The notes beneath the pieces were generated by a model. The model was given only the letters and a program-made list of their open reading frames with translations, was not told the origin of the DNA and did no database searches. DNA of 50,602 nucleotides from a virus (taxonomy: Duplodnaviria; Caudoviricetes). The position numbers and the translations under genes were made by a program. This document shows positions 5,330 to 34,414 of this stretch, piece after piece; positions within the stretch are counted from its first letter, which is position 1, and each line of letters begins with the position of its first letter. Location: positions 1 to 50,602 of IMG/VR virus record IMGVR_UViG_3300027747_000206; one strand, 5' to 3'.

Positions 5330-5581
5330 TTACCAACCAGAACAGTTCCAACGCTTGAGTGATGCTTTTGCTCTTGGAGCATCTCCCTTTGCGTGAGCAA
5401 CTACCCCTGACATCCTTGCACAAAACGAATCTTTCCTAGCACCACCCTGAGGTTGTGGAGCTTTTAAATGGCTTCCAGTCTCTCTGTTGTACTTAGCCCT
5501 ACCTTTGGCTGTTAAACCTGCTCCCTTGCTTACAGGAAGTTTCTCGCCACGACCTATTGCTAATGAAGGATTCTTTGCCAT
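5330..5581 (-). CDS. Small basic phage protein (DUF6321-like)
   Basis: GLTAKGRAKYN...LKAP...RKDSFCARM...LKRWNC. Start placed at ATG 5581, overlapping the upstream stop (TAATG). Confidence 0.7.
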   Translation of the reverse strand: MAKNPSLAIGRGEKLPVSKGAGLTAKGRAKYNRETGSHLKAPQPQGGARKDSFCARMSGVVAHAKGDAPRAKASLKRWNCSGW

Positions 5582-5880
5582 TACCAACAAGGGCAGACTT
5601 TTCCACCCCCCTTATGTTTTGCAGTTTTAGCTGATTGCTTAAAAGCATCTGCAGTTGGAGCACCTTTAGATCCTGTTTTACGCATATGTTCACCAGAACC
5701 ATGGGCTATACGTTCTTGTTTTGCATGAATATTGGCATAAAGTCCACCTTTGGCAAACTTCTTACCCTCATCAGCCTTAACAAATTCTTTGCCTACCTTT
5801 TGTGGTACGCCACCATATCCACCCTTGGTGTGGGCAGATATTTCCATCAGTTTATGTTGAGCAGGTGATTTGCTTGGCAT
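5581..5880 (-). CDS. Small basic protein with xxKGG motifs
   Basis: MPSKSPAQHKLM...; FAKGG; operon packing. Confidence 0.7.
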   Translation of the reverse strand: MPSKSPAQHKLMEISAHTKGGYGGVPQKVGKEFVKADEGKKFAKGGLYANIHAKQERIAHGSGEHMRKTGSKGAPTADAFKQSAKTAKHKGGGKVCPCW

Positions 5881-6345: not shown

Positions 6346-7572
6346 TTAACACTTAATACTACCACCACGCTTTTTAGCAGGTGTTACAGTTACCGATTCT
6401 TTACTCTTGGTAACACTGCCTGCAGGCTTGGCTTCATTCATACCCATCAGATTTTTAGCTCCTTGGTATATCTTTGAAGGAATACTTCTAATGTACTTAG
6501 CAGTATCCATATCTTCGTTGTATACACCTTGGAGTGTCTTGTCAAAAGCACCTTTAGATAAGTCATTTACTGGAGGCTTTGAAACAGCACTGCCTTCTTC
6601 ACCACTAAACTTCATGACCTTACCACCCTTTTTAAAGGTGCCAGATAATTGGTTTATGTGAACTGGCTTAGATGCAGGCTTTTGTCCTTGTGGCATTGCC
6701 ACGGCATGACCAGTGCGATTAACACTGCCCCCCGTGGCGAAGTGCTTTTTTAATGCACCACCTTTCTTGTAACCACCACCATTTGACTCTTTAACAGCAC
6801 CAGTTGTTGTATTGGTCACGCCCTTAGGAGTTCCAACAACATTGTCAACAGCGTACTTGTTTACGTTACCACTTATGGCATATTTGGCTTTTCCACCCTT
6901 TTTAAAACCACCTGCGTTGGACATTCTTACGCCACCAGTACCATTAGCATTGTCAGGCTTGGCTTGATGAACCAAAGTTGTGTCGTAATCACCAGAAGAA
7001 GTCTCTGAGTTAATAGATCCACCCTTCTTGTAACCACCTCCATTGCCTTTCTTAACAGAACCAGTGCCATGAGCACTGTCTTTCTTGGAAGTATCCATTT
7101 TAGTTTTTTCGTAAGGCTTTAAATTGCCTTTCATGGTAGTTTTGGTTTCATCAGCATCAATCATCTCACCTGATGCTTGTCCACCTGACTTGAGACCCTT
7201 ATGAGCTTTACTAGCCTTCATGGATTCATGGTGCTTGAGTTCTTTCTCAATCTTGCCCATTTCTTTCATTTCAGCTTTGTGCTCTTTTGGTGACTCCATT
7301 TCTCCACCTTTTTTCATCACAGGTGTAGGCATAGCAGTAGGCATGGCTGTCATAGCCCTACGTCTTATAGCCATTGGAGGCTTTTTAGGAGCCATAGCCA
7401 TCATAGCAGGAGGCATTCCACGAGCCATCATTGGCCCTGCCATACCACCATCCATCATCTTGTGACCATGCTCAGACTTTTTCTTCATGGAAACATGACC
7501 ACCTTTTTTGAGCTTCAGTTCAACTGAAGGCTCAGTGGTCTCCATCTTCACCATTGGTTTAAATTGTCCCAT
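6346..7572 (-). CDS. Lys-rich low-complexity protein with ~10 xxxGG motifs, probable internal head protein
   Basis: Repeated LKKGG/MKKGG/YKKGG/FKKGG/FATGG; GGAGG RBS; position after the capsid genes. Confidence 0.75.
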   Translation of the reverse strand: MGQFKPMVKMETTEPSVELKLKKGGHVSMKKKSEHGHKMMDGGMAGPMMARGMPPAMMAMAPKKPPMAIRRRAMTAMPTAMPTPVMKKGGEMESPKEHKAEMKEMGKIEKELKHHESMKASKAHKGLKSGGQASGEMIDADETKTTMKGNLKPYEKTKMDTSKKDSAHGTGSVKKGNGGGYKKGGSINSETSSGDYDTTLVHQAKPDNANGTGGVRMSNAGGFKKGGKAKYAISGNVNKYAVDNVVGTPKGVTNTTTGAVKESNGGGYKKGGALKKHFATGGSVNRTGHAVAMPQGQKPASKPVHINQLSGTFKKGGKVMKFSGEEGSAVSKPPVNDLSKGAFDKTLQGVYNEDMDTAKYIRSIPSKIYQGAKNLMGMNEAKPAGSVTKSKESVTVTPAKKRGGSIKC

Positions 7573-10724: not shown

Positions 10725-11666
10725 TTAAGTGTTATTTCTAGCTTCTTGGGCATATCGCTTGATCATCTTGGCTCTCTTCTGAGGATCATCCCAGAAACCT
10801 GCATCTTTCATCGCTCGAACCTGTTCGGGTCTTAGCGTGATTTGAGTTCGGTTAGAAGAACCATAAACAGTCTCACGTCCAGTGCCAGTCTGCACACTCC
10901 TTGGTCTCTTAACAAACGGTTTACCGTCCATATCGTCATTGTATCTAGGGTTGATACGCTTTGACAAGCGATTATCTAACTCATCCCAATATTCGGAATC
11001 AGAAGGATTCCAACCCTCTTTGACGAGGTCTTCGTCAATTACTTTGGCGATTCTTGAATCGGTATCAGTCCCATTGGGGTTGTACCAAGAATTCCTCTCC
11101 ATCCAGTCAGATGCGTGCTTCTGAACCTTTGGATCAGGAATATTGTTAGTTTGACGTGGTCTGACCTGAGCATCTTTAAAGCCTTTTAAGTCTCTAATAG
11201 CTGTCCTAGTCTCGTCCCACATCTCTTGTGCTTTGTTAAAAGCATCACCATCACTTACTTGCATGGCCTCAGACATCTTCATCTTGGCATACTGCAATCT
11301 AAGCTCTTGGTCTTCAATAGCCTTGTCTATACGAGCTAAGTCTGCACTGTGGGTTTTGTGCTCCACAACTGCTAGACGCCCCATAAGAGCCTCGTTTTGT
11401 CTTCTAAGAAGGTTCAGTTGGGCTTCCTTCTCGCTAGAAGTGGCTTTGGCTATCTCTTTCTTGTACCTACGCTTTGCTCGTCTAGCATCACGAATGGCTT
11501 GGGTGTCATCTGGATGGTCTTCTCCACCATCATCAGGAACTGAACCACCCTCAGCCTTTTGTTCTTCTTCCTCAGGCATTAAATCCTCAGGAAGATCGAC
11601 CAATGCTGAACCATCAACCTTTTCTTTTACGTTAATGTCTAACTTTTCTGTTGTTTCTGTGCTCAT
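10725..11666 (-). CDS. Capsid scaffolding protein
   Basis: Acidic N-terminus, coiled coil, WMERNSWY and YWDELDNRL motifs, basic C-terminal helix; between portal and capsid. Confidence 0.7.
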   Translation of the reverse strand: MSTETTEKLDINVKEKVDGSALVDLPEDLMPEEEEQKAEGGSVPDDGGEDHPDDTQAIRDARRAKRRYKKEIAKATSSEKEAQLNLLRRQNEALMGRLAVVEHKTHSADLARIDKAIEDQELRLQYAKMKMSEAMQVSDGDAFNKAQEMWDETRTAIRDLKGFKDAQVRPRQTNNIPDPKVQKHASDWMERNSWYNPNGTDTDSRIAKVIDEDLVKEGWNPSDSEYWDELDNRLSKRINPRYNDDMDGKPFVKRPRSVQTGTGRETVYGSSNRTQITLRPEQVRAMKDAGFWDDPQKRAKMIKRYAQEARNNT

Positions 11667-12094
11667 ATGAACGCCCTCATTGCTAGTGGATCACAAGTGA
11701 CTTTGGCTATGACTTCGTGGTCGTTTAGGATCATGAACAAGGCTTTATCCTCGTCTTTTTCACCCTCAACTTCAACTTCCCACCTGTCACCACCCCATTT
11801 TGGGACACGGATGTAGTCTCCAACCTCACACCATGAGCCTTCAGGCCAACCTTGCATAGTGTCTCGGTTTTTGAATGCTAGAGGGCCAATCTCAATGACC
11901 TTAGCTACCATGTTTTGCCACTTTTCAGTCTCTTTGGTCTCTGAAACCAAAATGATCCCTGCACTAGTCGTTCTCGTCTTAGTTCTTCTGAGTTGAACTA
12001 AGATTCTTCCACCTAATGGCTTCGCTCCCGGATCTACAACTGGAAAGGCCCAATTTATCTCAGCTTCGCTAGAAGCTACGGTGCTATCGCTCAT
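11663..12094 (-). CDS. groES: GroES/Cpn10-like co-chaperonin
   Basis: KPLGGRILVQ...TSAGIIL...AKVIEIGP...VGDYI...ILNDHEVIAKV matches the Cpn10 pattern. Confidence 0.85.
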   Translation of the reverse strand: MSDSTVASSEAEINWAFPVVDPGAKPLGGRILVQLRRTKTRTTSAGIILVSETKETEKWQNMVAKVIEIGPLAFKNRDTMQGWPEGSWCEVGDYIRVPKWGGDRWEVEVEGEKDEDKALFMILNDHEVIAKVTCDPLAMRAFI

Positions 12095-12278: not shown

Positions 12279-12431
12279 TTATTTTTTCTTTGCTTGTGCT
12301 AGTCCTCCTTGTGGTTTAGTTGGCTTTGTATCGCCTTTGCCCTTTAAAGATGTGCCATCAAGCTTTTCGCCCATAGCGATACGCTTGTGTTGACGAACTA
12401 ATTCGCCTTTTTGCTCTGCATCACTAGACAT
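12279..12431 (-). CDS. Small basic protein (50 aa)
   Basis: Hand-translated MSSDAEQKGELVRQHKRIAMGE...AKKK. GGAGG RBS; fills the gap after portal. Confidence 0.65.
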   Translation of the reverse strand: MSSDAEQKGELVRQHKRIAMGEKLDGTSLKGKGDTKPTKPQGGLAQAKKK

Positions 12432-14982
12432 TTTGTCCTCCTAGAAAGTTCTGAGCTTGGTTTTCAAGTCCCAGTGCAGTTTTCACCTGCTCGTGTTGCA
12501 ATTTGCCCCCTTCATGGGTCAATTTTGCAGATTCAATACGCTCTTTGGTGCGGTTATCTTCAGTATTTATAGCTAAATCCATCTGTTTTTCAGCCATAAA
12601 CTTGTCAGCATCAGCTTTTAGCTTGGCTTGTTCCAATTGTTGGCTATTAACTAGCTTGGCTTGAGCCATTTGAGCGTCAACTTGGTCTTTTTGTGCCCTA
12701 CGCTGTGTCTCAGCCATAGAAGTTTGCACCAAAGCCTGAGCGTCAGCGTCCATTGGGGGCTGTGCTTGCTGTTTTAATTGCTGAATTTGTTGCATCATCT
12801 GTTGGAAAATGGGCATAACGTGGGCAAATGTCTGCTCAGAGTCTTGTTGGACGTGCTGAGAGGCCAATGCATACAGTTTGTCAGCCTTGGGAGTAATCTC
12901 AGGGTTGTCGTAGTCAATCATCTTGCCCCTCATGGCCTTCTCAACATACTCATTCATCCTAGATTGATACCACATACCAAAGTGTTGTTGTATATGAGTG
13001 ACCATAGGTTGTATCAAAGAAGGCATGATCAATGGGTTTGCACCACCAAACACTGGATTTTGATAGAAATCTAAGTGACTTTGTATGTGAGCAAGGTGAT
13101 CTTGGGTGTCATATGCTTTAGCAGGCTGACCAGTCATCATCAAGACATTCTCTTGTGAGCTATCAATCATGTCCTCTACAGGCTCCATGATCATTAACTC
13201 ATTGATCTGAGGTATCTTCATCTGCTTCAAAAATCGCTCAAGCACTGCCTTTTGGTTAAAAGCTTGTGGGTACTGAGCCATGATGGACATCACAGCCTGA
13301 GTCTGAGCCATTCTCTGGGTTTCAGAGAAAATATGTGGATCAGAGACTGGTATAACATCAGTGTTTCGCTTGAAGTCTTCCCTATGGATGTCCAAGTCAA
13401 CGACCATCTCACCACGTCTTTGGTCATCTAGATACCATCTATTCAGCCTACCCAAAACTTTCAAGACACGAGCTTGTGACTCGTGCAATCGGGCATGGAT
13501 GGCTGAGTAGACGTGAGCACCTTGTTCGATAAGGGCTTGGGCTGTTCCTACAGGCATATTGTTGCCTGCTTCTGCAATCTTCTCTTCTGAGGTGGACACC
13601 ACCCCTTTAGCCGCATTTGTGAGCCAACCCAACAACTCCATCAGCACTGGGCTAGGAGGATTAAAAGGCATGGGCATGGCTATCTTGCGTACATCGTCAA
13701 CGCCCGGGGCACCCTCAATCTCAGCCACCTGAGTGACCTCAACTTGTTGGGTTTGACCAGACATCCTCGCACCCTTGATCTTCAACATTGTTGCTGAATT
13801 GTTGATATGTGCAGAGTCTAGGAGAGCACGAAGCGATCCTGTGAGAGCCGCAGACAGTCCCCCAATGAGATGAGGCAATCCAATCGCATAAGCTCCACGC
13901 CAAGGTATGAACTTGAACTCTATAAGCCAATCCAACTTGGTCATGGTCTCATCGCCCTCTTCCCAATTCCGATAGAGGCCAACGCACTTCATGTCTAACT
14001 CATCAATCATCATGATGTAAGGAGCAGTCTCGCCCTTAGTGCGTCTGTCTTCATCCATCTCTAGCCATGTATAGATGTGGAATACGTTCCTGACTCCATC
14101 GTCATTGTCTTGAAATTTCTTACCTTCGATCTTGGCGTTTGCTTTTTCAGCGTAGCTCATCTCAGGCTCTGCAGACGCTCTGATCATACTGATGTCTCTG
14201 TAGAGACCTGAGTCCACCCTTCGTTGGAACTCCCAAGAGGTAATGGTATTGACCTCAGTCACCCTTTGGGCAGTGTAGAAGTTGCCTGAGGCATAGGGTA
14301 GGTAGATGTTATCTATGGGCACAAACTCTGTACAGGGACGTTTTTTGCCTTCGTCATACCACATTTTGAGGTACTGTGAGCCACCAAGAGGAAGTTGGGT
14401 CAGTAACTGCTCTTGTTCGTCCCTGAACTCTTCGATTTGCTCTGTTAACTGCCAGTTCATGTAGTCACGTTTACGCTCTGCTACTTCAACTTTCTTCTTG
14501 TCAACATCACCAATAATCTTTGTTCTAGTTGGGCCATCAGGTGGGAACATCTCCTTGATGGCTCTGGAGGCAAAGTCTACGCAAGCCTCAGCCATGATGG
14601 GATGGACTACCTTGGAAGCTCCGAGGAAGTTAGCCCCTCCGGGGGCATCCTTACCCAACCCTGTTCTCTTCAATCCTTCTTCGTACTGTTTGTCTCGCTC
14701 CTCACGACTCTGCTTGTCGTTCTCTACGAGGTCTACATAACGCATAGCAATACGGTTTAGCTCATAGGGATCAAACTCCTCAGCCAAGTTTTGGTAGAAG
14801 TCCTCGTCCTCCTCAGGGCCTTGGTAGTCATCAGTCGTGATAATTGCAGAGCCATCAGGCAGTTCCTCGATGTCCATCTCTTCCTCAGGTAGGTCAACAG
14901 TGACGCTACCATCCTCTGCAGGCTCAGACACGCCATCGACAAAGCGTTGGTAGTCTTGTTCAATAGGCATTTCAGTAGCCAT
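12424..14982 (-). CDS. Portal protein
   Basis: 852 aa, with Gln-rich C-terminal coiled barrel as in P22-type portals; downstream of terminase. Confidence 0.9.
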   Translation of the reverse strand: MATEMPIEQDYQRFVDGVSEPAEDGSVTVDLPEEEMDIEELPDGSAIITTDDYQGPEEDEDFYQNLAEEFDPYELNRIAMRYVDLVENDKQSREERDKQYEEGLKRTGLGKDAPGGANFLGASKVVHPIMAEACVDFASRAIKEMFPPDGPTRTKIIGDVDKKKVEVAERKRDYMNWQLTEQIEEFRDEQEQLLTQLPLGGSQYLKMWYDEGKKRPCTEFVPIDNIYLPYASGNFYTAQRVTEVNTITSWEFQRRVDSGLYRDISMIRASAEPEMSYAEKANAKIEGKKFQDNDDGVRNVFHIYTWLEMDEDRRTKGETAPYIMMIDELDMKCVGLYRNWEEGDETMTKLDWLIEFKFIPWRGAYAIGLPHLIGGLSAALTGSLRALLDSAHINNSATMLKIKGARMSGQTQQVEVTQVAEIEGAPGVDDVRKIAMPMPFNPPSPVLMELLGWLTNAAKGVVSTSEEKIAEAGNNMPVGTAQALIEQGAHVYSAIHARLHESQARVLKVLGRLNRWYLDDQRRGEMVVDLDIHREDFKRNTDVIPVSDPHIFSETQRMAQTQAVMSIMAQYPQAFNQKAVLERFLKQMKIPQINELMIMEPVEDMIDSSQENVLMMTGQPAKAYDTQDHLAHIQSHLDFYQNPVFGGANPLIMPSLIQPMVTHIQQHFGMWYQSRMNEYVEKAMRGKMIDYDNPEITPKADKLYALASQHVQQDSEQTFAHVMPIFQQMMQQIQQLKQQAQPPMDADAQALVQTSMAETQRRAQKDQVDAQMAQAKLVNSQQLEQAKLKADADKFMAEKQMDLAINTEDNRTKERIESAKLTHEGGKLQHEQVKTALGLENQAQNFLGGQNV

Positions 14983-14984
14983 AA

Positions 14985-17072
14985 TTATTTCCTTTTAATC
15001 CATGTATCTGGTGTCATATGGTGCTTTGCAACAAAGTCATCGTGTAGCTTTTGTGGTGGTATTTTGTGTTCTTTAGATATGTGTGCCATTAACTTGTCTA
15101 TTGAGTGATAGTCTGTCTTAGGTAAGGCAGGCAGATTGGTCTCTAAGCTAAGGACTGCACCACCTTTAGCTAACTTCCTGTCTGCCAGTTCCATAAACAT
15201 GGTGTCAGGGTTACTACTGATAGACACACTTCCACCACGTTTCATTTCAGGCTCAGGCTGTGCTTCTCTAATTGCTTCTGCACCTAAGATTGGCAAAGGC
15301 AAATGGCCTCCATAATAAAGCTCACGCCAATCACTTTTTTTCATTACTGGAGAATTAGCTTGTGTGTATCCTGCATTCTTATGTGCTTGCAATGCATCAG
15401 CCATTTCAGACCATGATTGCCTTGGAAGCTTTCTAAAGTCTGGGTGGGCAAACTCATGGGGTTCAATACGCCCACGATACATATCCCATTTACGCCATTG
15501 CTCAGGAAACAACTCTAATATTGGATTTTGACCTCTTGACTGATCAACATAATCAACTACTTTGCTGTAGAAAGGATTGAAATCTTGAAATGTTTTAGGC
15601 TCATAAGCAAGTTTTTCTGGTGTTGCAACACTAGGAATATCATTGAGTTCACCACTCTTCAATCTATACATTCTTCCCATTTGTGTGCCACCAATTACGT
15701 TTATGGCGGCATCTTCTACTTTATTAGGATCTGCTTCTAATATTGCTTTTGTAGTAGGTTTAGTACCCAAAAGTGCTGACATTCTTCCCCTAAATGCCTC
15801 ACCCACATCTGGATCATCCAACATTTGTTTATATGAGTTTCTGATCATATGCAAGTCAACAGCAGAAGTGTTGGCCTTTTCGAGGTCTAACCATGGTGTA
15901 CCTAAAGATGCAGTCTTTGGCCCAAGACCCGGCACCTGATTCATAACCCTTGTGGTCACATCCCTCATAGTCTCATTAGGCTGAAGCTTAAACATTTCAG
16001 GTTTATCTAATATTAACTTAGCCAATACTGCCTGATTACCTAAATCTGCTGTACCTGAAACACCCATACCACCACGACCTGCGGCTCCAGTGCCCAATTG
16101 CAAATCAGCAGTCTTAGATAAGTTTGGCTCTCCAACACGACCTGCTAAAGCCTTTAGCTCATCCATGTTCACAAGTCTAGCTCTTTGTGCTAAGAACTCG
16201 TTGGGAGTCAATGGAGCATTTGGAGACAATAGAGCAAAGTTCAGCCTATTGAACATATCCACTTCATCTGGATTTTCAATCTTATGCGTCCTAATGAACT
16301 TCTTCATCAATTGATCATGCACATCTTTGGGCAAAGAATTTGGATCAATATTCATTGCCTTGATCTTGAACATATCAGGTATGGTAAAAGTGCCCTCAAG
16401 ACCGCCGGGAATCTTCACCTCTCTGCCCGTAGTCAAGTCAGATATACCAAGTGGCACATCAGGGCTGACACTCATATTGACACCATGCTTGGCACCCCAT
16501 TCAGCCCATTCTTTCTCAGAGGCTTTAGGGCCGGGGGTTCTTGCAGGCTCTGCCCTATATCTATTTCTATTTGCCAATGCTTCTTCTACTGAGCTAACAG
16601 GTATTTGCTCCAATCCCTTGGCCTTAAAAACAGGGTTTGTCATCATAGAACGAGCAATGTCTTCTTCTTTACCTGTAAGCTTGGCAACTTCTTTCATCGA
16701 TCTAGGAATGCCACCACTCTCTTGAATTTGCTCAAAAGCCTTTTGATAAGCATCAAATTCCGAGGGACGGAGACCTAATGACTTTGCTGTTTTAGGCTTA
16801 ATCACACCTGCATTCATGTCCATCATGGAATTGGTCGCTTTGTCAGCCAATTCATTGAATGCTTGTCTATTTGTGATTTTGAGTGGATTGCGTGAATCAC
16901 CAAAAGCTTGGTTATGCAAGTCTGCAATTTGCTTTTGATTGTCAATGAGTTGACCAGAAGCTTGTTGCACCACTCCAGATGGATTAGACAAAAGGTCTTT
17001 GAGTTGGCGTTTAGCCCTATCGCCAAAGGAATAAATAGCGGGCAAGACACCGCTTAGTAGTGCATCAGCCAT
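14985..17072 (-). CDS. Multidomain protein with HhH-GPD-superfamily DNA glycosylase/lyase-like domain
   Basis: FALLSPN...VPGLGPKTAS (helix-hairpin-helix with Lys)...SAVDLHMIR (conserved Asp); C-terminal MKRGG/LAKGG. Confidence 0.7.
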   Translation of the reverse strand: MADALLSGVLPAIYSFGDRAKRQLKDLLSNPSGVVQQASGQLIDNQKQIADLHNQAFGDSRNPLKITNRQAFNELADKATNSMMDMNAGVIKPKTAKSLGLRPSEFDAYQKAFEQIQESGGIPRSMKEVAKLTGKEEDIARSMMTNPVFKAKGLEQIPVSSVEEALANRNRYRAEPARTPGPKASEKEWAEWGAKHGVNMSVSPDVPLGISDLTTGREVKIPGGLEGTFTIPDMFKIKAMNIDPNSLPKDVHDQLMKKFIRTHKIENPDEVDMFNRLNFALLSPNAPLTPNEFLAQRARLVNMDELKALAGRVGEPNLSKTADLQLGTGAAGRGGMGVSGTADLGNQAVLAKLILDKPEMFKLQPNETMRDVTTRVMNQVPGLGPKTASLGTPWLDLEKANTSAVDLHMIRNSYKQMLDDPDVGEAFRGRMSALLGTKPTTKAILEADPNKVEDAAINVIGGTQMGRMYRLKSGELNDIPSVATPEKLAYEPKTFQDFNPFYSKVVDYVDQSRGQNPILELFPEQWRKWDMYRGRIEPHEFAHPDFRKLPRQSWSEMADALQAHKNAGYTQANSPVMKKSDWRELYYGGHLPLPILGAEAIREAQPEPEMKRGGSVSISSNPDTMFMELADRKLAKGGAVLSLETNLPALPKTDYHSIDKLMAHISKEHKIPPQKLHDDFVAKHHMTPDTWIKRK

Positions 17073-17131: not shown

Positions 17132-18568
17132 TTACTGTGCATAGGGGTTGCCTTTGGACTTAGCCATTCCTGAGTCCACATAATCGTCTTCATCGTAGTC
17201 ATCTGGCCTTGGCCCATCAACATCTAACCATCCAGTGTCCCTTAGGAACCTCAAAGCTTGGGTCATGGCATCTACATAATCATCGTGAGCAGACTCAGGG
17301 AAGGCGCAGACTTGGCTGACCATGCCTTCTGCCCAGTCTTTGACAAAGCCCTTGTTCTTACCACTCTCAGGTATCCAGACTCGACCATGAACTATGACAG
17401 GGCTGACCACATTGAGCCTTTGGACTTTGTCGATGCGACCCGGGTTATAAGCCCGAACAGGCAAATGTGCTCTCTGAAGGTCTTGGATCAACTGAATGCC
17501 TGCTGACTTGTCCTCCACTAGTATCAAGTCCACCCTCTTCTTGTCCTTACCCTCGCCAAACACCACCTCGAACTCTTCTTTGACCTTGGGGCGTAGATCA
17601 GGGTACTGGAGTCTATCTTGCCAACAGTCGATCACCATGGCACTCATTGGGCCATCAGTGGGTTTAAAGACTCCAAGGGTTATACAAGCAGTGGCATCGT
17701 TCTGAGTCTTCTCTGAGGTTGCACAGTCGTAGCTTTGGACAATGTACTCAAACTTAGGGAAAGCTTTACCAGAAGGCCAAAGCTTGAACATAGACCTCTT
17801 AATGATGCCAGTGTCCTCAGGATCTAGGATTTCAGCATAAATCTCTTGTTTTCCTAATTTGGTGCCTTCGTATTGGAGGATCTGCTTTCTGAATGAGGGT
17901 GCTAAGTTAGCTAGGTTAGTGTAGGTCGAGGCTGTGGTCACCACCACATCATCCCCATCCCTACCTACCAAGTCCACGATCAAGTCCTTTGGTCTAGGCG
18001 TAGTGGTGCAGATTATCCTTGTCTTGGCGCCTAGGCGTACTGCAAACTGGATTTGATCCCAAGCGTCTGTGATGTAGTCCCATGCGGCTAACTCATCGCA
18101 CCAAGCACCATGCCACTGGCCTCCCCTGAAACGCTCAGGCTCTGAGGCAGGGATACCCTTCAGTAAGGAGCCATTGGTCAGGTAAAGCTCGTGAAAGCTC
18201 TTGTTGTAGTCTTTGATCAATTCTTGGGGGATAACATTCAGGAGTCCAGAGTCCCCCTCAAACATGGTTCCCCTCACGTCACTAGAGGTAGGGCCTGCAC
18301 ATAGCCACCTAGAGTTAGGAGTCTCCCATGCCCACCTTCCAATTGTTTCTGACGCTGTTCTGGTCTTCCCTGCCCCCCTACCTGCTAATAGGAGCCAAAT
18401 GTTCCACCAATCCCCTGAAGGGACAATCTGATGGTCATGGGCGTTGGCTAACCAACTCATGTGCCATTTGAAGGCTGTAAGCTCCTCTAGGGATAAATGA
18501 TTTAGGTTTGCCTGAAGTTCTGGGTTCTCTAAGTATTCTTGAATGTCATCCAGAATGTCAGTCTGCAT
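17132..18568 (-). CDS. terL: Terminase large subunit
   Basis: Walker A LAGRGAGKT, Walker B AWCDE, TTTP coupling motif, nuclease HDDYVDA. Confidence 0.95.
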   Translation of the reverse strand: MQTDILDDIQEYLENPELQANLNHLSLEELTAFKWHMSWLANAHDHQIVPSGDWWNIWLLLAGRGAGKTRTASETIGRWAWETPNSRWLCAGPTSSDVRGTMFEGDSGLLNVIPQELIKDYNKSFHELYLTNGSLLKGIPASEPERFRGGQWHGAWCDELAAWDYITDAWDQIQFAVRLGAKTRIICTTTPRPKDLIVDLVGRDGDDVVVTTASTYTNLANLAPSFRKQILQYEGTKLGKQEIYAEILDPEDTGIIKRSMFKLWPSGKAFPKFEYIVQSYDCATSEKTQNDATACITLGVFKPTDGPMSAMVIDCWQDRLQYPDLRPKVKEEFEVVFGEGKDKKRVDLILVEDKSAGIQLIQDLQRAHLPVRAYNPGRIDKVQRLNVVSPVIVHGRVWIPESGKNKGFVKDWAEGMVSQVCAFPESAHDDYVDAMTQALRFLRDTGWLDVDGPRPDDYDEDDYVDSGMAKSKGNPYAQ

Positions 18569-18905
18569 TTTTCAACTGACGCTTGAGTTCGATGTTCTTA
18601 ACCAAGTCAGCCACCACTTCCTTGGCTTTGACATCTATCGTCATATGACCATCCACTTGACCAGTGTGATCTAAACGAGCTAGTTTGGGAATGTGATACT
18701 CCACTACGCTCTGGAAGAGTTCAAAGGCTTTGGCAGGATTGGGCTTGATCTCATACTCTGGGTCTCCATCAGCTACCTTGTCGAGCCACTCAGTGAGCCT
18801 ATGAGCGTTTCCATCCACAAATGAAGCTATGGCCTGCCTAGCCTCTTGCGTAGCCTTGTTGGGCGTTCCTACCTGTCTACCACCTGTTTTCTGACCTACT
18901 GTCAT
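18558..18905 (-). CDS. terS: Terminase small subunit
   Basis: KTGGRQVGTPNK N-terminus; overlaps the terL start. Confidence 0.8.
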   Translation of the reverse strand: MTVGQKTGGRQVGTPNKATQEARQAIASFVDGNAHRLTEWLDKVADGDPEYEIKPNPAKAFELFQSVVEYHIPKLARLDHTGQVDGHMTIDVKAKEVVADLVKNIELKRQLKNAD

Positions 18906-29855: not shown

Positions 29856-31622
29856 TTATCTAGAAGGGACATTGATTGTCCCTAAGTCTGTTAAATCAGG
29901 CTGTGCATTGCTCATACCAGTTAAGGCAGACAATCCACTAGATGCATAAGGTTGGGCATTCTTAACAAATTGTGGCCTTGGTGAAGTAACTACATTAGAT
30001 AATAGTTTTCTAGAAACTGGATTGTACATAGAACCAGTTAATGCCAAAGGCATACCCAATCCTGCAACTGTGTTACTTAGCCCCTCTACAGCAGTTCCTC
30101 CCACAAGCTTACCCATACCTTGCCCAGTCATTAAACGCTGTGCTGTAAAGCTATCAGGCAATGTTGGGCCAAGTACATTCTTAATGTTTTCTGCTTGTGG
30201 CTCCATCAGGCCAGTTCTGGTGGCTTGTTGGGCGTTTGTGCCCATCTTGTGGGTAGAGGAGGCAAACTGAGATGGAGTAAATACGCTTCCTTCTGCCCCC
30301 AACTTTCTAGCAGAATCTTCTATTCTTAAATACCTTTTGAAGAACTCGTGGATGCCTTTAAGTTCTTTGGCATGAGCAGGGTTGACATTAGCTAATTCAT
30401 CCCTCAAACCCTCTTGAAATGCCCTTACAGCTTTACCAAGCCTTCTATTTTGTGCGTCACTACCACTCATTAAGTCTTTAGCTAATGTGCCTAAATCACT
30501 CTCAGCATCCCTGAATTGTTGGCCTGTTAATTTGTAATTTCCTTGAAGCAAAGGCGTATAAAAATTGTCTTTAATAATAGAAGCAAATTCTTCTTTTTTA
30601 TCAGGATGTAAACCCCTCAAAGCATTTACTTCAACACTTGCTAAATTAGACAGGGTATTTGGTTTAGGCGTAAAGTCAATCTTATTGGCTATGTTAGTGT
30701 AAGAGTTGTTAACCTTGTTATTTAAGAAAGACATCATCTCTGTGCCTGCCTCAATACCTTTTGGCAACTGTTCGCCAATGTGCTTTAAGGCTTCGTTAGC
30801 AACAGCTTTGTTCATGCTCTTGTTGACGCTCTCAAGCTCGTTACGAATCAGCATACCTGATATGGGCATACTGGTAGCAAGCTTCTCGGTATTTTGAAGA
30901 GCTTTGCCAATGAAGGGGATCTGCCCTGCGAGTTGCCCCGGGGTAAACTCCTTGATCCCCATATCAATCAACTTCTGCATCTCAGGCGTAACCTTGGGAT
31001 TCATCAACATCTGCGTACCCTTACCTACAAGGGCACCTCCTGCAGTCGAGGCCAATGTAGCAGGAACTTTCTCTTCTAAGAACTCACCATAACTATCTGT
31101 AGGTTTTGTAGGTGTTAAAAGACCAGAAGTCAATCCACCAATGCCAGATTTGAATAACTCTGACTTACCTAAAGCACTTGGTATCTTGCCTGCCATTTGA
31201 TAAGCTTTCATGGCTAAAGGGCCAACCATAGCACCCTCACCCATCAAAGAACCTGCTGTAGATACTGCAGGATAGGATATATCAGATGCGTGTTGTCTAA
31301 GCCTTTGCACTATGTCAGCAGGAGCCTGTACATTGGCAAATTGAGCAAGTGCGGCAGGGGCAGACATCAATCCTGCAAGAGCAGACTCAGCCACAGCTTG
31401 AGGCATATTGGCAGAACGCTCAGTGTCTTGCAATTGCCTACGACCAGTCATCTGTGGGAAGACACCAGTGGCGGCTCCTCCACTTGTGTCAGTGGGAGCT
31501 TTTTGTGCCATGTATTGCTCACGAGCAACATTCTCTATTTGCTCAGGCGTAGCACCCTCAGGGCCTTGTATCGTTAAGATAGAACCATCAGGAGTTTGTA
31601 CTTTGTAGATTGCATCAGCCAT
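29856..31622 (-). CDS. Internal virion / DNA ejection protein
   Basis: YKVQTPDG..LTIQGPEGAT N-terminus; Gly/Ala hydrophobic helices; last gene of the tail operon. Confidence 0.65.
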   Translation of the reverse strand: MADAIYKVQTPDGSILTIQGPEGATPEQIENVAREQYMAQKAPTDTSGGAATGVFPQMTGRRQLQDTERSANMPQAVAESALAGLMSAPAALAQFANVQAPADIVQRLRQHASDISYPAVSTAGSLMGEGAMVGPLAMKAYQMAGKIPSALGKSELFKSGIGGLTSGLLTPTKPTDSYGEFLEEKVPATLASTAGGALVGKGTQMLMNPKVTPEMQKLIDMGIKEFTPGQLAGQIPFIGKALQNTEKLATSMPISGMLIRNELESVNKSMNKAVANEALKHIGEQLPKGIEAGTEMMSFLNNKVNNSYTNIANKIDFTPKPNTLSNLASVEVNALRGLHPDKKEEFASIIKDNFYTPLLQGNYKLTGQQFRDAESDLGTLAKDLMSGSDAQNRRLGKAVRAFQEGLRDELANVNPAHAKELKGIHEFFKRYLRIEDSARKLGAEGSVFTPSQFASSTHKMGTNAQQATRTGLMEPQAENIKNVLGPTLPDSFTAQRLMTGQGMGKLVGGTAVEGLSNTVAGLGMPLALTGSMYNPVSRKLLSNVVTSPRPQFVKNAQPYASSGLSALTGMSNAQPDLTDLGTINVPSR

Positions 31623-33295
31623 TATTTAGCCTTTTCAACACCAATGATTTTGAATCCACCTATTTGGGGCATAGGAGATGGTGTAGGAGTTTGAGAAGAA
31701 GTTGATGAACCTTTTAATAATTCATCTGGCTCAAGGAAAACTGGCTTTTCACCCCTACTCTGTCTATTGATATTTTCAATACCATTTCTTACATAACGAT
31801 CAATCATGTTTAGAGATGCATCAAAAGCTTTTTTGGATCCTTGTGGATCAAGAGTAGTTATTAAGTTGGTAATCTTAGAACCTTCAGCATTAGACAAAGC
31901 TCCAAAACCTTTCATGCTTTGAATGTTTGCAATAAAACTTGCAGATTTTAAACTTTCAAGTTGATTTGCAAAGTCTCTAGCTTCCAATGTAGGAATTTTA
32001 GACAAAACACCACCAAGAACAGGGAACGTACCAGTAGAACGGCCGGGGTGATTTCTCAAACTTTCAGCCTTGAAAGCTAAATCTTTCAAAGGCGTTTCTT
32101 GTGCTCTAAGTTTTTCCAGTCTATCGGTTTCTTTCAAATCTTTCTTTTCTTTAGCTTCTTCAATCTTTCTATCAATTTCAGATTGTTTCAATTGATTTGC
32201 AAAAGCGTGTTGTGATTGAGCTATAGCCTGATTGGTCGTTGCGATCATCATGGCGTTAGCCATTTGAGCGTTTCTGTCCAAGTGCTGTTGCATTTGTTGG
32301 TTGAGTTCGGTGGCTTTCTTAGCCGCAGTCTCTGGATCCATGGATGGTGCAAGCTTGGAGTAATGGTCAATCAAACCCTTATATCCCTCACCTTGTTTGC
32401 CTAGCATTTCAGCAGTCAACTTCAAGGTGTCAAATGGGTTGGACGTATCCCCCATTTCACCTATCATTCCACTTGCTCTCATTTTTTTGATAGCATCTGC
32501 AAGTTTTTCAGAAGCACCTAATGGATCTCCAGTTAGCTTGACATACTCACCAAACTTAGCAGGGTTGATCTTGAACTTGGCTTCTACAGTGCCATCAGGC
32601 TTAATATATTGTGTGGTTGTAATCAATTGATTACCAACTGTTGACAATGCTTCTTGTTTTTGTTCTGCAATCAATTGTTGCAAGAACTTTGGATCTTTAG
32701 TAATAGAGGCTAGTTTCATAGCCATCTCTGGACTCATCCTCAGACCTTTGGGAGTCTGCTGATACAAGTTGCCCATAGTTTCTTCAATGTCTTTTTCACG
32801 CTGACGCTCAGATCCTTGACGAGCTAACGCCATCCTAGCTTGTAGATTAGTTACATTTTCTCTAGCTTCTTGATCTTGAGATTTTCCAACTTCTTCAGCT
32901 ACGTTACCTAAAGATTCAAAAAAACTACCTGTCTTAGTTGGTCTAAAGAAGCCTCTAGATAAAGCCAAACCCATGTTGCTAAAGGGTTGTTTTTGCTCTA
33001 AAGACTTAGACAGTAATTGTTCAGCTTCATCATATATTTGATCATACTTGTTCTTGTATGGCTCGGTTGTTTTCGTAGCCAATGGAGCCAATGGAGTTTC
33101 TACACTTGCTCCACGAGCTTGTTCTTGAACAGGAGGTGCAGGAGGAGTCAAAGGTGCATACTGACCTGATTGAGCAGGAGGTTGTCCCATAGGAGGAGCA
33201 CCAGTAACTTGACTCATAATCTCATTTGTAGATAGATAAGTTCTTCTTGGGTCTCCACCACCAATAACGCTAGGATTTAAAGTTGGTAATGCCAT
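31622..33295 (-). CDS. Internal virion / DNA ejection protein
   Basis: Helical, with GFGALSNAEG motif; position in the ejection cluster. Confidence 0.65.
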   Translation of the reverse strand: MALPTLNPSVIGGGDPRRTYLSTNEIMSQVTGAPPMGQPPAQSGQYAPLTPPAPPVQEQARGASVETPLAPLATKTTEPYKNKYDQIYDEAEQLLSKSLEQKQPFSNMGLALSRGFFRPTKTGSFFESLGNVAEEVGKSQDQEARENVTNLQARMALARQGSERQREKDIEETMGNLYQQTPKGLRMSPEMAMKLASITKDPKFLQQLIAEQKQEALSTVGNQLITTTQYIKPDGTVEAKFKINPAKFGEYVKLTGDPLGASEKLADAIKKMRASGMIGEMGDTSNPFDTLKLTAEMLGKQGEGYKGLIDHYSKLAPSMDPETAAKKATELNQQMQQHLDRNAQMANAMMIATTNQAIAQSQHAFANQLKQSEIDRKIEEAKEKKDLKETDRLEKLRAQETPLKDLAFKAESLRNHPGRSTGTFPVLGGVLSKIPTLEARDFANQLESLKSASFIANIQSMKGFGALSNAEGSKITNLITTLDPQGSKKAFDASLNMIDRYVRNGIENINRQSRGEKPVFLEPDELLKGSSTSSQTPTPSPMPQIGGFKIIGVEKAK

Positions 33296-33304
33296 ATTTA
33301 GTCC

Positions 33305-34414
33305 TTAGTCGATCATGCCGGGATTGTTGGGTTTACCAAAATCACCCCAAGATGCTTCAATTTCAGCATTAGTTGGAGAATTGGCATTACTAAATGTGTT
33401 AGAAGTACTTGATCCACCACTGATTGTTCCATCAGAGTTTAAAGTCAAACCACCACCTAAATCAGCACTACCATCAGAGTTAAACTTGAATAGACCACCA
33501 CTGCCAGAGCCACTAAACAAGCTTTTTATGCCACTTACAGCGCTATTGTTACCACCTGCGAATAATGAAGCTAGTCCTGCTATTTGACCTAATGGAGAAG
33601 CCCCATAACTAGATGCAGGGCCAGAGTAGGTTTGAGTCGTTGCTGTAGGTACTGTATAACCCCTAAGAAGTCCTGCCACATTAGTAGCAGTATTCAAAGG
33701 TGCATTGATCAGTGCTTGGTTTTGGGCCTGTGATTGTGCTCCTAAGCTTGCTCCTGCGTTTAATCCCTGAACTGTTGCGCTCTCAAGCCCTGTTCCTAAT
33801 TGACCTTGTACATTAGCTATTTGGCCTTGGTTCTGTTGTTGTTGGAGGGCTTGTGTTACAGCATCTTTGTAGGCTTGAGACATATTGGCAGACTCCTGAG
33901 CACCCAAACCTTGTTGAATGCCTCCAAGGGTCTGCCCAGTAGCATTCATAAGCCTCTGTGAACCTGTACTACCTGAAGATACTCCCATGGCCTGTAAAGC
34001 AGGTAAGATGCTTTGATTAATATTTTGTGCAGTATTTGTCTCTAAATTTCTGTTAACTGCATTAGTGTAAGGGTTCAAAAAGTTATTGATCTGACTAGAA
34101 CCTATGTTTTGAGATGCATTCTGTGCTGTTTGTGCTCCTGCATTTAGTGGATTCAAACCTGCTAGTAATAAATTTTGAGTATTTGCTTGACCTTCGGGAG
34201 TGCCATAAATGTTATTTTGCAACTGAGACAATGGTGCAACATAGGGAGCACCTGCATTTAAATTGCCTTCAAGAGTTTGATTAGGATTTAAAGCACTAGT
34301 TCCTGCAGTACCCAAATTACTCAAAAATCCCAAATACTGGGCAGGAGCTATGGTCTGCGAGGTTTGTGTAGTATTGACATTGGGTGGTGCAATACCTGAA
34401 AATATGTCTGCCAT
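33305..34414 (-). CDS. Internal virion / DNA transfer protein
   Basis: Gln/Gly/Asn-rich; NFLNPY and SPLGQIAGLA motifs. Confidence 0.65.
   Translation of the reverse strand: MADIFSGIAPPNVNTTQTSQTIAPAQYLGFLSNLGTAGTSALNPNQTLEGNLNAGAPYVAPLSQLQNNIYGTPEGQANTQNLLLAGLNPLNAGAQTAQNASQNIGSSQINNFLNPYTNAVNRNLETNTAQNINQSILPALQAMGVSSGSTGSQRLMNATGQTLGGIQQGLGAQESANMSQAYKDAVTQALQQQQNQGQIANVQGQLGTGLESATVQGLNAGASLGAQSQAQNQALINAPLNTATNVAGLLRGYTVPTATTQTYSGPASSYGASPLGQIAGLASLFAGGNNSAVSGIKSLFSGSGSGGLFKFNSDGSADLGGGLTLNSDGTISGGSSTSNTFSNANSPTNAEIEASWGDFGKPNNPGMID

What the first reader, a model, noticed from the sequence alone, without database searches (positions are those of the whole stretch)
14985..17072. HhH-GPD DNA glycosylase/lyase as probable virion cargo between terminase and portal
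Seen: FALLSPN, then VPGLGPKTAS (about 15905-15935) and AVDLHMIR (about 15840-15865), then QWRKWD. Established: this order matches the HhH-GPD superfamily (EndoIII/OGG), where the HhH Lys and downstream Asp are catalytic; no Fe-S Cys cluster is present. The gene heads the late head operon, not the DNA-metabolism region, and carries the xxxGG tag. Inference: a base-excision enzyme is packaged and injected. It could repair oxidised phage DNA, remove defence-installed base adducts, or attack modified host or competitor DNA. I know of no characterised system like this.
Basis: partly seen in the sequence, partly recalled or inferred. Interest (0 to 1): 0.85.

Follow-up and report, generated by a model that had tools for sequence, protein, structure and literature searches.

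The report
Glycosylase-like enzyme in phage head module
A gene between the DNA-packaging motor and the portal of an uncultured phage encodes a very divergent relative of DNA base-excision enzymes, which in related phages is fused to domains typical of proteins thought to be injected with the DNA, so it is probably a new kind of virion-delivered DNA-acting enzyme.

Summary
ORF 14985..17072 (-) encodes 695 aa with all four quoted motifs in the stated order, and it lies between TerL and portal.

No Pfam, NCBIfam or PDB sequence search recognises the conserved core (aa ~135-590). Two AlphaFold models do place aa ~250-590 next to HhH-GPD glycosylases. All 8 best PDB matches of the domain model are Ogg2, EndoIII or MUTYH enzymes, but the scores are weak (E 0.13-2.7, TM up to 0.51). 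Lys386 and Asp406 align with Lys120 and Asp138 of E. coli endonuclease III. They are invariant in 257 of 257 covering homologue rows. The protein has no cysteine, so no Fe-S cluster.

The family has 259 clusters and is essentially limited to uncultured phages. In 71 of 80 IMG/VR loci it sits next to TerL and/or portal, in three different gene orders. Relatives are often giant "polyvalent" proteins carrying ART-PolyVal, LPD23, GNAT, PcfJ or methyltransferase domains.

Best reading: a head-packaged, injected bifunctional glycosylase/AP-lyase-like module. The fold is well supported. Catalysis and packaging are inferred. Substrate and purpose are unknown. The "xxxGG tag" is a real, recurring inter-domain junction motif of unknown meaning.

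Verdict: new variant of known kinds; interest about 0.62.

The parts
14985..17072 (-). Whole ORF, 695 aa (P0001), stop codon included
16788..17072 (-). N-terminal helical, low-confidence module (aa 1-95). It varies between phage lineages. The same module recurs at aa 690-781 of the slot protein of locus L004.
   Evidence: pLDDT 36-58 over most of aa 1-70; alignment A1; phmmer
15303..16670 (-). Conserved family core (aa ~135-590), modelled with pLDDT mostly above 90
15633..16295 (-). HhH-GPD-like helical domain (aa ~260-480). The Atlas structural matches run on to about aa 590.
   Evidence: Foldseek; Atlas; hhalign
16218..16238 (-). FALLSPN (aa 279-285), aligned with AVLLSAQ of E. coli endonuclease III; S283 is S in 256 of 257 rows
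15906..15935 (-). Helix-hairpin-helix motif VPGLGPKTAS with the invariant putative nucleophile Lys386
   Evidence: Pfam HHH E 0.23, below cut-off
15840..15863 (-). AVDLHMIR with invariant Asp406, 20 residues after Lys386
15438..15512 (-). C-terminal conserved helix and loop of the core, FPEQWRKWD..R.R.EPHEFAHPD (aa 521-545). F522, Q525, W526, W529, D530, R533 and H539 are invariant family-wide. The HEFAH string is not conserved in distant members, so it is not a zincin motif.
15138..15287 (-). Disordered linker with the junction motif (aa 596-645): MKRGG-SVSISSNPDTMFMELADRKL-AKGG.
   Evidence: pLDDT 25-40; regex; recurs at domain junctions in L003 (twice), L004, L005 and L068
14988..15104 (-). 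Small C-terminal three-helix domain (aa ~657-695). It is shared with the N-terminal region of a large cyanophage 'tail fiber protein' and with phrog_10346.
17132..18568 (-). Terminase large subunit (context)
   Evidence: Pfam Terminase_6N/6C; PHROG
12424..14982 (-). Portal protein (context)
   Evidence: phrog_1216, E 8e-18

Best explanation
The ORF encodes a stand-alone, short version of a module that occurs in 'polyvalent' proteins of uncultured tailed phages.

Its constant core (aa ~135-590) is built around a very divergent HhH-GPD domain. That domain keeps the arrangement of bifunctional glycosylase/AP-lyases of the EndoIII/Ogg type: a helix-hairpin-helix carrying a lysine (Lys386) and an aspartate 20 residues downstream (Asp406). 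It has no Fe-S cluster.

Proposed mechanism:
1. The protein is made late with the head proteins and built into the capsid near the portal. This is inferred from gene position and fusion partners.
2. It leaves the virion with the DNA at infection (inferred).
3. In the cell it binds duplex DNA through the HhH, flips out a base, and cuts the N-glycosidic bond and/or the AP site through a Lys386 Schiff base, with Asp406 as the activating carboxylate. This is inferred from invariance and from alignment with the catalytic pair of endonuclease III.

The substrate is unknown. Of the possible purposes, I rank immediate clean-up of the incoming phage genome (oxidised, UV- or defence-modified bases) slightly above attack on host or competitor DNA.

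What is shown: the gene, its position, the family, the invariant residues, the predicted fold neighbours and the fusions. What is not shown: catalysis, packaging, injection and the target.
For: Fold:
- Full-length AF2 model: mean pLDDT 79, core mostly above 90. Best PDB matches are Tm1821 Ogg2 (3n0u; prob 0.92-0.95) and MjOgg (3knt).
- Domain model aa 250-490: pLDDT 72. Its 8 best PDB matches are all HhH-GPD enzymes; the top one is 3knt_C (prob 0.99, TMq 0.44, TMt 0.51).
- ESM Atlas structural neighbours are viral 'HhH-GPD/8-oxoguanine glycosylase' clusters, TM 0.38-0.52.

Sequence register:
- hhalign of the family profile against E. coli Nth aligns K386 with K120 and D406 with D138.
- Against a 12-row HhH-GPD alignment the match is collinear over 189 columns with score 24.1. 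Controls scored 10.8 (reversed) and 7.9-14.1 (20 column shuffles).

Invariance: K386 and D406 are each kept in 257 of 257 covering rows and are among only 13 invariant columns at 23-31% identity.

Cargo:
- 71 of 80 IMG/VR loci have TerL and/or portal on the same strand within 6 kb or less, in three orders: core-TerL(-portal) in 42, TerL-core-portal in 11 plus 8 partial, and TerL/portal-core in 10 (PHROG confirmation).
- In the nearest kin L003 (TerL 91%, portal 92% identical) the same slot holds a 1706-aa protein made of the core plus ART-PolyVal.
- Other partners are ART-PolyVal, LPD23, GNAT, PcfJ and a methyltransferase.
- 58 of the 150 listed cluster representatives are 1000 aa or longer, up to 4969 aa.
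- Iyer et al. 2017 (PMC5512222; passages read) argue that such phage proteins are packaged and injected.
- No convincing terminator lies between TerS and the major capsid gene.
Against: - No sequence method recognises the domain. Pfam gives only HHH at E 0.23. PF00730, PF22175 and PF23802 find nothing in the window even at E<=10. NCBIfam finds nothing. The PDB phmmer and profile searches find no glycosylase.
- Every Foldseek E-value is above 0.1, rmsd is 6-11 A and TM is at or below about 0.5.
- hhalign probabilities are 1.6-4%.
- The domain carries large additions with invariant residues of unknown role: the Gly-rich loop G334/G337 and the C-terminal W526/W529/D530/R533/H539 block. The chemistry may therefore differ from classic glycosylases.
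- Packaging rests on gene neighbourhood and fusions only. The window's own protein carries no second recognised effector domain, and no MuF or peptidase domain was found.
- No cultured phage has a homologue, so no virion proteome exists.
- In 42 loci the gene lies just upstream of TerL, sometimes with overlapping stop and start. That fits a role in DNA packaging equally well.
Confidence: 0.5

Rival explanations
1. A late enzyme of DNA packaging rather than cargo. An HhH-GPD-type glycosylase/lyase would work with the terminase on replicated DNA, for example by removing abnormal bases or making nicks or ends before or during packaging. It would not be delivered to the next cell.
For: In 42 of 80 loci the gene lies immediately upstream of TerL, where small terminase subunits usually sit. 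In L008 its stop overlaps the TerL start. In the window it lies between TerL and portal. The catalytic-looking Lys and Asp are invariant.
Against: Fusion to ART-PolyVal, GNAT, LPD23, PcfJ and methyltransferase domains in proteins of up to 4969 aa is typical of delivered effectors, not of packaging enzymes. In 10 loci the gene follows the portal, where minor head proteins usually lie. The window has a separate TerS-like ORF (18558..18905) overlapping the TerL start.
Confidence: 0.2
2. A structural minor head or pilot protein, analogous to SPP1 gp7 or Mu F. It would use the HhH only to hold DNA near the portal and would serve as the anchor that carries variable effector domains into the capsid. 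It would have no catalysis of its own.
For: The core is the constant part, and the other domains vary around it. It always neighbours TerL/portal. HhH motifs are general DNA binders. No MuF-like gene was seen in the window's head module.
Against: The lysine and aspartate are completely invariant and lie in the register of the EndoIII catalytic pair. A further set of polar and aromatic residues is also invariant. This is more than DNA binding should need. There is no similarity to Phage_Mu_F in Pfam at E<=1.
Confidence: 0.15
3. The resemblance to HhH-GPD is convergent or spurious. The core would be an all-helical domain of another, unknown function (enzymatic or not) that happens to contain an HhH-like hairpin.
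For: No HMM or PDB sequence match. Foldseek E-values are 0.1-3 and TM is about 0.5 or less. hhalign probability is 4% or less. ESM Atlas feature hits (DUF7178, 0.75-0.79) are below the level that the tool calls more than a lead.
Against: Three largely independent signals agree. All 8 best PDB neighbours of the domain model belong to one superfamily. Alignment with EndoIII is collinear and scores above all 21 controls. The two residues that define the superfamily's bifunctional enzymes are invariant at the right spacing.
Confidence: 0.12

Closest known systems
Ogg2-type 8-oxoguanine DNA glycosylase/lyases (M. jannaschii MjOgg, PDB 3knt/3fhf; T. maritima Tm1821, PDB 3n0u)
   Same: They are the best structural neighbours of both models. 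They share the all-helical two-lobed fold, the HhH with a lysine, an aspartate about 18-20 residues later, and the lack of an Fe-S cluster. The catalytic roles of these residues are recalled from the literature, not from a call.
   Different: Identity in the structural alignments is only 12-18%. The Ogg-HhH HMM (PF22175) finds nothing. The domain is embedded in a ~450-aa core with an N-terminal alpha/beta part, a Gly-rich insert (G334/G337) and a C-terminal Trp-rich block. It is encoded in a phage head module and fused to effector domains in relatives.
Endonuclease III (E. coli Nth) and MutY/MUTYH, classic HhH-GPD (PF00730)
   Same: The profile alignment puts FALLSPN on AVLLSAQ, GLGPK386TA on GVGRK120TA and AVD406LH on AVD138TH. 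D. radiodurans EndoIII and MUTYH are among the best 8 fold matches.
   Different: There are no cysteines, hence no 4Fe-4S loop. PF00730 does not match. The statistical support is marginal.
Phage polyvalent proteins (Iyer et al. 2017, PMC5512222) and packaged effectors such as T4 Alt and P1 Dar proteins
   Same: Relatives of this protein are fused to ART-PolyVal, LPD23, GNAT, PcfJ and methyltransferase domains. They are encoded by phages with a terminase-portal system, next to those genes. That paper proposes that such proteins are packaged and injected (passages read).
   Different: The window's copy is short, with the core plus one small domain. No MuF, zincin peptidase or other anchor domain was found. 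The word 'glycosylase' does not occur in that paper's main text, and 'HhH' occurs once, in another context. Its supplementary domain lists could not be seen, so the core might correspond to one of its unnamed LPDs. No Pfam LPD model matches it.
Phage-encoded HhH-GPD repair genes in DNA-metabolism regions (e.g. Streptomyces phage Sf3 gp35; PMC5336643, passages read) and T4 endonuclease V
   Same: These are phage-borne base-excision enzymes.
   Different: They are recognisable by Pfam, lie among replication and nucleotide genes, stand alone, and have no link to the head module or to polyvalent proteins.
Host antiviral HhH glycosylases (bioRxiv 10.1101/2025.10.29.685425, passages read)
   Same: They are divergent members of the HhH superfamily recruited into phage-host conflict.
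   Different: Those are bacterial and act on modified phage DNA. The present protein is on the phage side and probably travels in the virion.

Membership tests
HhH-GPD superfamily (Pfam PF00730 / Ogg-HhH PF22175) | Significant match to the family HMM | tested here: not met
   Pfam scan of P0001 at E<=1 gives only HHH (PF00633) at E 0.23, 11.8 bits against a cut-off of 24. PF00730 and PF22175 searched over the window at E<=10 give 0 matches, while the controls ring. None of 54 family members hits either model at E<=0.01.
HhH-GPD superfamily | Helix-hairpin-helix (h-P-G-h-G-x-K/x-T-A) followed by a conserved Asp about 18-20 residues later | tested here: met
   VPGLGPK386TAS ... AVD406LH. K and D are each kept in 257 of 257 covering rows. 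They align with K120/D138 of E. coli Nth.
HhH-GPD superfamily | All-helical two-lobed fold shared with EndoIII/Ogg/MutY/AlkA | tested here: met
   The best 8 of 25 PDB matches of the domain model are all HhH-GPD enzymes (prob up to 0.99, TMt 0.51). The full model's best 3 matches are Ogg2 enzymes. Caveat: all E-values are above 0.1 and rmsd is 6-11 A, and these are predicted models only.
HhH-GPD superfamily | Profile-profile homology | tested here: inconclusive
   hhalign gives E 0.01-0.03 and probability 1.6-4%. The score of 24.1 is above the reversed control (10.8) and 20 shuffled controls (max 14.1), and the alignment is collinear.
EndoIII/MutY subgroup | Four-cysteine 4Fe-4S cluster loop | tested here: not met
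   P0001 has 0 Cys.
HhH-GPD bifunctional glycosylase/lyases | Base excision and beta-lyase activity through a lysine Schiff base | not testable with these tools
   Needs enzyme assays and borohydride trapping.
Phage polyvalent proteins (Iyer et al. 2017) | Several unrelated effector domains in one polypeptide | tested here: inconclusive
   The window's protein has the core plus one small C-terminal domain and no second recognised enzyme. Relatives qualify: L003 has 1706 aa with ART-PolyVal, P0167 has ART-PolyVal plus a methyltransferase, and 58 of 150 representatives are 1000 aa or longer.
Phage polyvalent proteins | Encoded with the terminase-portal and virion genes | tested here: met
   71 of 80 loci have TerL and/or portal within 6 kb or less on the same strand. 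In the window the gene lies between the two.
Phage polyvalent proteins / packaged effectors | Presence in the virion and delivery into the host | not testable with these tools
   No cultured phage in the 50,697-record collection carries a homologue, so no virion proteome can be consulted.
MuF / SPP1 gp7 minor head proteins (PF04233) | Match to the Phage_Mu_F model | tested here: not met
   No such match at E<=1.

The most novel reading that the evidence does not exclude
This family would be the first known base-excision enzyme that tailed phages carry inside the capsid and inject with their DNA. It would be a lysine/aspartate HhH-GPD glycosylase-lyase that acts within seconds of entry. It could strip damaged or defence-installed bases from the incoming genome, or nick host or rival DNA that carries a particular modification. 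In the window's lineage it would be cut out of larger polyproteins at a conserved K-x-G-G junction peptide that flanks the modules.
Probability: 0.3. Interest if true: 0.8.

Novelty: new variant of a known kind. Interest (0 to 1): 0.62.

Why it matters
Injected phage proteins decide the first minutes of an infection, yet few enzymatic ones are known (T4 Alt, N4 virion RNA polymerase, P1 Dar). I know of no characterised DNA glycosylase/lyase delivered with the genome of a tailed phage. My five literature searches found none.

If real, it would add base excision to the repertoire of entry-phase weapons or self-protection. It would mirror the recently described host glycosylases that attack modified phage DNA.

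The family is sizeable: 259 clusters at 50% identity, and 94 relatives confirmed in the IMG/VR scan. It is restricted to uncultured, apparently aquatic or soil phages and has no Pfam, PHROG or NCBIfam model. Naming it would annotate many large 'hypothetical' virion proteins.

The conserved core is compact and well modelled, so it is directly testable in vitro.

Tried and rejected
Sequence searches on P0001 that did not recognise the core:
- Pfam: only HHH, below cut-off.
- PHROG: only phrog_10346, on the C-terminal 78 aa.
- NCBIfam: nothing.
- PDB phmmer: 4 weak, irrelevant hits, E>=0.097.
- PDB search with the family profile: 0 hits.

HMM searches of the window: PF00730, PF22175 and PF23802 (DUF7178, suggested by the ESM Atlas) gave nothing at E<=10. 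The DUF7178 lead is therefore unconfirmed.

Zincin idea: the string HEFAH (aa 539-543) looks like HExxH, but H543 is not conserved in distant members. Rejected.

Searches for cultured or plasmid homologues:
- tblastn of P0001, P0143 and P0182 against the phage collection found no core match.
- P0182 against plasmids found none.
- The genome-contig scan used a single peptide pattern and gave only 2 MAG contigs. Its sensitivity is limited.

The slot protein of MW202545.1 (TerL 62% identical) is unrelated to P0001 (BLASTP E 1.3) and carries GP88.

The promoter/terminator scan was not above shuffled expectation.

Tools and data not available or not used:
- Supplementary files of Iyer et al. 2017, which hold its domain lists, could not be read.
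Full report
**1. What is at the coordinates.**
The minus strand of 14985..17072 holds one open frame of 695 aa (P0001). A GAGG lies 7 nt before its ATG. Its stop is 2 nt from the ATG of the next gene. The gene upstream (17132..18568) is a large terminase subunit (Pfam Terminase_6N/6C). The gene downstream (12424..14982) is a portal (phrog_1216). A 115-aa TerS-like ORF overlaps the TerL start. Further downstream come a GroES-like gene, a scaffold-like gene and the major capsid gene (Phage_capsid_4). The only convincing terminator follows the capsid gene. The gene is therefore inside the head operon, but third in it rather than at its head.

The protein has no cysteine. The window is a 50.6-kb IMG/VR virus record estimated to be 90% complete.

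**2. Anatomy of the protein.**
An AlphaFold2 model from a 35-sequence alignment has mean pLDDT 79. It shows:
- aa 1-66, low confidence, helical;
- aa ~100-590, one compact body, mostly pLDDT above 90;
- aa 590-656, disordered;
- aa 657-694, a small three-helix domain.

Alignments show that only aa ~135-590 are conserved in the family. In the most distant members only aa ~200-590 are conserved. N-termini and C-termini differ from lineage to lineage.

**3. Is the centre an HhH-GPD domain?**
Sequence methods say nothing:
- Pfam gives only a sub-threshold HHH hit (E 0.23).
- PF00730, PF22175 and PF23802 find nothing in the window at E<=10.
- NCBIfam finds nothing.
- Neither PDB sequence search finds a glycosylase.

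Fold comparison points consistently one way:
- The full model's best PDB matches are the Ogg2-type 8-oxoguanine glycosylases Tm1821 and MjOgg (prob 0.92-0.95 and 0.75; E 0.11-0.41).
- A separate model of aa 250-490 (pLDDT 72) has as its 8 best matches only HhH-GPD enzymes: MjOgg, Tm1821, D. radiodurans EndoIII and MUTYH. The best has prob 0.99 and TM 0.44/0.51.
- The ESM Atlas's own model has viral 'HhH-GPD / 8-oxoguanine glycosylase' clusters as nearest structures, TM 0.38-0.52, with the aligned range running to about aa 590.
- In BFVD an archaeal-virus endonuclease III appears at rank 26.

None of these scores is significant by E-value. I therefore checked the register by profile alignment:
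- Against E. coli Nth alone, the only alignment found puts GLGPK386TA on GVGRK120TA and AVD406LH on AVD138TH.
- Against a 12-row HhH-GPD alignment built from E. coli and two MAG genomes, the domain aligns collinearly over 189 columns. FALLSPN lies on AVLLSAQ. The score is 24.1, against 10.8 for the reversed template and 7.9-14.1 for 20 column shuffles.
- HH-suite probability stays at 4% or less.

That K120 and D138 are the catalytic pair of endonuclease III is my recollection of the literature, not a call.

**4. Conservation.**
They are. Among the 261 proteins held at that point (P0001 plus the hits), 259 gave 266 domain rows. In the 257 rows that cover the columns, position 386 is K in 257 and position 406 is D in 257. 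The remaining 9 rows are fragments.

At 23-31% identity only 13 columns are invariant: G334, G337, G382, K386, D406, F522, Q525, W526, W529, D530, R533, H539 and G568. The Gly-rich loop and the C-terminal Trp/Asp/Arg/His block have no counterpart that I can name in classic HhH-GPD enzymes. They may shape the substrate pocket. The HEFAH string is not conserved in distant members, so it is not a zincin site.

**5. The family and where it lives.**
- A profile search of 1.84 billion cluster representatives found 259 with E<=1e-3 and 169 with E<=1e-30.
- Of the 150 listed, 58 are 1000 aa or longer, 35 are 1500 or longer and 18 are 2000 or longer; the maximum is 4969 aa.
- No core homologue was found in 50,697 GenBank phage records with three different queries, nor in 72,556 plasmids.
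- One peptide-pattern scan of 185,579 species genomes gave two MAG contigs.
- BFVD holds one uncharacterised homologue from an uncultured phage, 48% identical.

The family thus seems confined to uncultured phages and has no name in any library I could search.

**6. Fusion partners.**
Pfam on relatives finds:
- ART-PolyVal in P0003, P0006, P0123, P0167, L003, L059 and L068;
- LPD23 in P0044 and P0120;
- GNAT in P0083;
- PcfJ in P0121 and P0122;
- a methyltransferase in P0167;
- DUF3293 in 2 of 54 members, and Patatin as a weak hit in 1 of 54 (E 0.0099).

Several giants have nothing recognisable: P0152, P0161, P0184, P0227, P0072, P0099, L053 and the first ORF of L081.

These are the hallmarks of the 'polyvalent proteins' of Iyer et al. 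2017. From the passages I read, those authors propose that the phage versions are packaged in the capsid and injected. Their main text does not contain 'glycosylase', and it mentions HhH once in another context. Their supplementary tables could not be opened.

**7. Genomic context across 80 IMG/VR loci.**
These are the best 80 of 94 confirmed relatives. I used TerL and portal proteins from the window and from three PHROG-verified loci as queries. The results were:
- core immediately upstream of TerL(-portal): 42 loci;
- TerL-core-portal, as in the window: 11 loci, plus 7 with only an upstream TerL and 1 with only a downstream portal;
- TerL and/or portal upstream of the core: 10 loci;
- neither detected: 9 loci, most of them with short flanks.

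In three of those nine (L036, L080, L082) a pair of large upstream ORFs could not be identified. In total 71 of 80 loci have the packaging genes within 6 kb on the same strand. Core identity stays at 50-70% between lineages whose TerL and portal are not detectably similar. The module therefore moves between phage types but keeps this neighbourhood.

In the window's nearest relative (L003; TerL 91%, portal 92% identical) the slot gene is 1706 aa. It comprises an unknown 850-aa N-terminal part, the core and ART-PolyVal. In MW202545.1 (TerL 62% identical) the slot holds an unrelated 890-aa protein with a GP88 domain. In Caulobacter phage GB2A (TerL 40% identical) no ORF is annotated between TerL and the next large ORF, only a tRNA. 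The slot is therefore a variable cargo-like locus, and the window carries a minimal version.

**8. The 'xxxGG tag'.**
The disordered linker holds MKRGG and LAKGG. The 50-aa stretch around them recurs at domain borders of lineage-A slot proteins:
- twice in L003, just before and just after the core;
- once each in L004, L005 and L068.

The window protein's N-terminal module reappears in L004 directly after such a junction. The same hydrophobic-K-[KRT]-G-G-x-[VI] motif occurs 8 times in the 408-aa ORF 6346..7572, and also in two other virion-region ORFs. It is thus a real, lineage-specific linear motif at module junctions. Whether it is a protease site, a binding peptide or a recombination joint is unknown. 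I found no protease in the head module.

**9. Interpretation.**
The fold assignment rests on predicted structure, motif register and invariance. I put it at about 0.85. That the domain is catalytically active on DNA as a glycosylase and/or AP lyase follows from the invariant Lys/Asp pair, and I put that at about 0.6. That the protein is packaged and injected follows from neighbourhood and fusions, at about 0.55-0.6. The joint reading is my best explanation at 0.5, on the assumption that these odds are correlated.

Rivals are a packaging-associated DNA-processing enzyme (0.2), a non-catalytic gp7/MuF-like DNA-binding anchor (0.15), and a spurious fold resemblance (0.12).

The purpose (self-repair, removal of defence adducts, or attack on modified DNA) cannot be decided here. 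The window shows no DNA-modification genes among the ORFs I scanned. It appears to rely on host replication, having only a primosomal/O-like protein and an exonuclease. This mildly favours a role in protecting or repairing the incoming genome.

**10. Literature.**
Five full-text searches found no report of a virion-packaged HhH-GPD enzyme in a tailed phage. They did find:
- phage HhH-GPD genes in DNA-metabolism regions (PMC5336643, passages);
- T4 endonuclease V-type enzymes in jumbo phages (PMC7824862, passages);
- host antiviral HhH glycosylases (bioRxiv 10.1101/2025.10.29.685425, passages).

The library does not cover subscription journals, so absence there is not proof.

**11. Verdict.**
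This is a new variant of known kinds: a divergent HhH-GPD domain used as a module of phage polyvalent or head-associated proteins. Interest 0.62.

Noticed in passing
window 6346-7572 (-): A 408-aa Lys/Gly/Met-rich, low-complexity ORF downstream of the capsid gene. It has 8 copies of the hydrophobic-K-[KR]-G-G motif, including three longer repeats of the type TGxVK..NGGG[YF]KKGG. It has no Pfam or PHROG match. It could be an internal head or DNA-binding protein.
   Followed up: partly
window 5581-5880 (-) and 34414-38661 (-): The same K-x-G-G motif occurs near the C-terminus of a 99-aa ORF (KHKGGGKV) and at aa 1306 of the 1415-aa ORF (YKTGGHV), which is probably a tape-measure-like protein. The motif seems confined to virion-region genes of this phage.
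   Followed up: partly
L003 1916-7036; L004; L005; L068: The ~40-aa junction peptide of the window protein (aa 596-645) flanks the core on both sides in L003 and sits at domain borders in L004, L005 and L068. The window protein's N-terminal module (aa 1-95) recurs at aa 690-781 of the L004 protein. This indicates module shuffling at these junctions.
   Followed up: partly
window 14988-15104 (-); L083 4001-4198: The C-terminal three-helix domain is 45% identical to a stretch near the N-terminus of a very large 'tail fiber protein' (about 1880 aa by its coordinates). That gene lies two genes downstream of the small terminase gene in Synechococcus phages MA01, MA10, ME01 and MC09. The domain also matches phrog_10346 (unknown function).
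   Followed up: partly
window 11663-12094 (-): A GroES-like co-chaperonin gene (phrog_3188, E 5e-11) lies in the head module just after the portal. It is conserved in the related loci (L003, L050, L053, L054, L055, L068) and is annotated 'chaperonin 10 kd subunit' in MW202545.1.
   Followed up: no
L001 8636-11308 (MW202545.1): In the nearest GenBank phage (TerL 62% identical) the TerL-portal slot holds an unrelated 890-aa protein with a GP88 (PF17338) domain and its own AKMAKGG motif. The slot seems to be a swap site for large accessory proteins.
   Followed up: partly
window 31622-33295 (-): A 557-aa ORF matches phrog_2534, described as 'released from the phage upon host infection' (E 1e-23). 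It is a second candidate ejected protein in this phage.
   Followed up: no
L002 2445-5248 (Caulobacter phage GB2A): The large terminase is annotated in two pieces separated by a DNA methyltransferase gene. The tblastn search reported 3 places in the record. This is possibly an interrupted TerL gene.
   Followed up: no
The genome search control for PF23802: The viral family DUF7178, the ESM Atlas's nearest 'feature' neighbour, rings below cut-off in E. coli, M. jannaschii and H. volcanii. It may itself be an HhH-GPD-like viral family.
   Followed up: no
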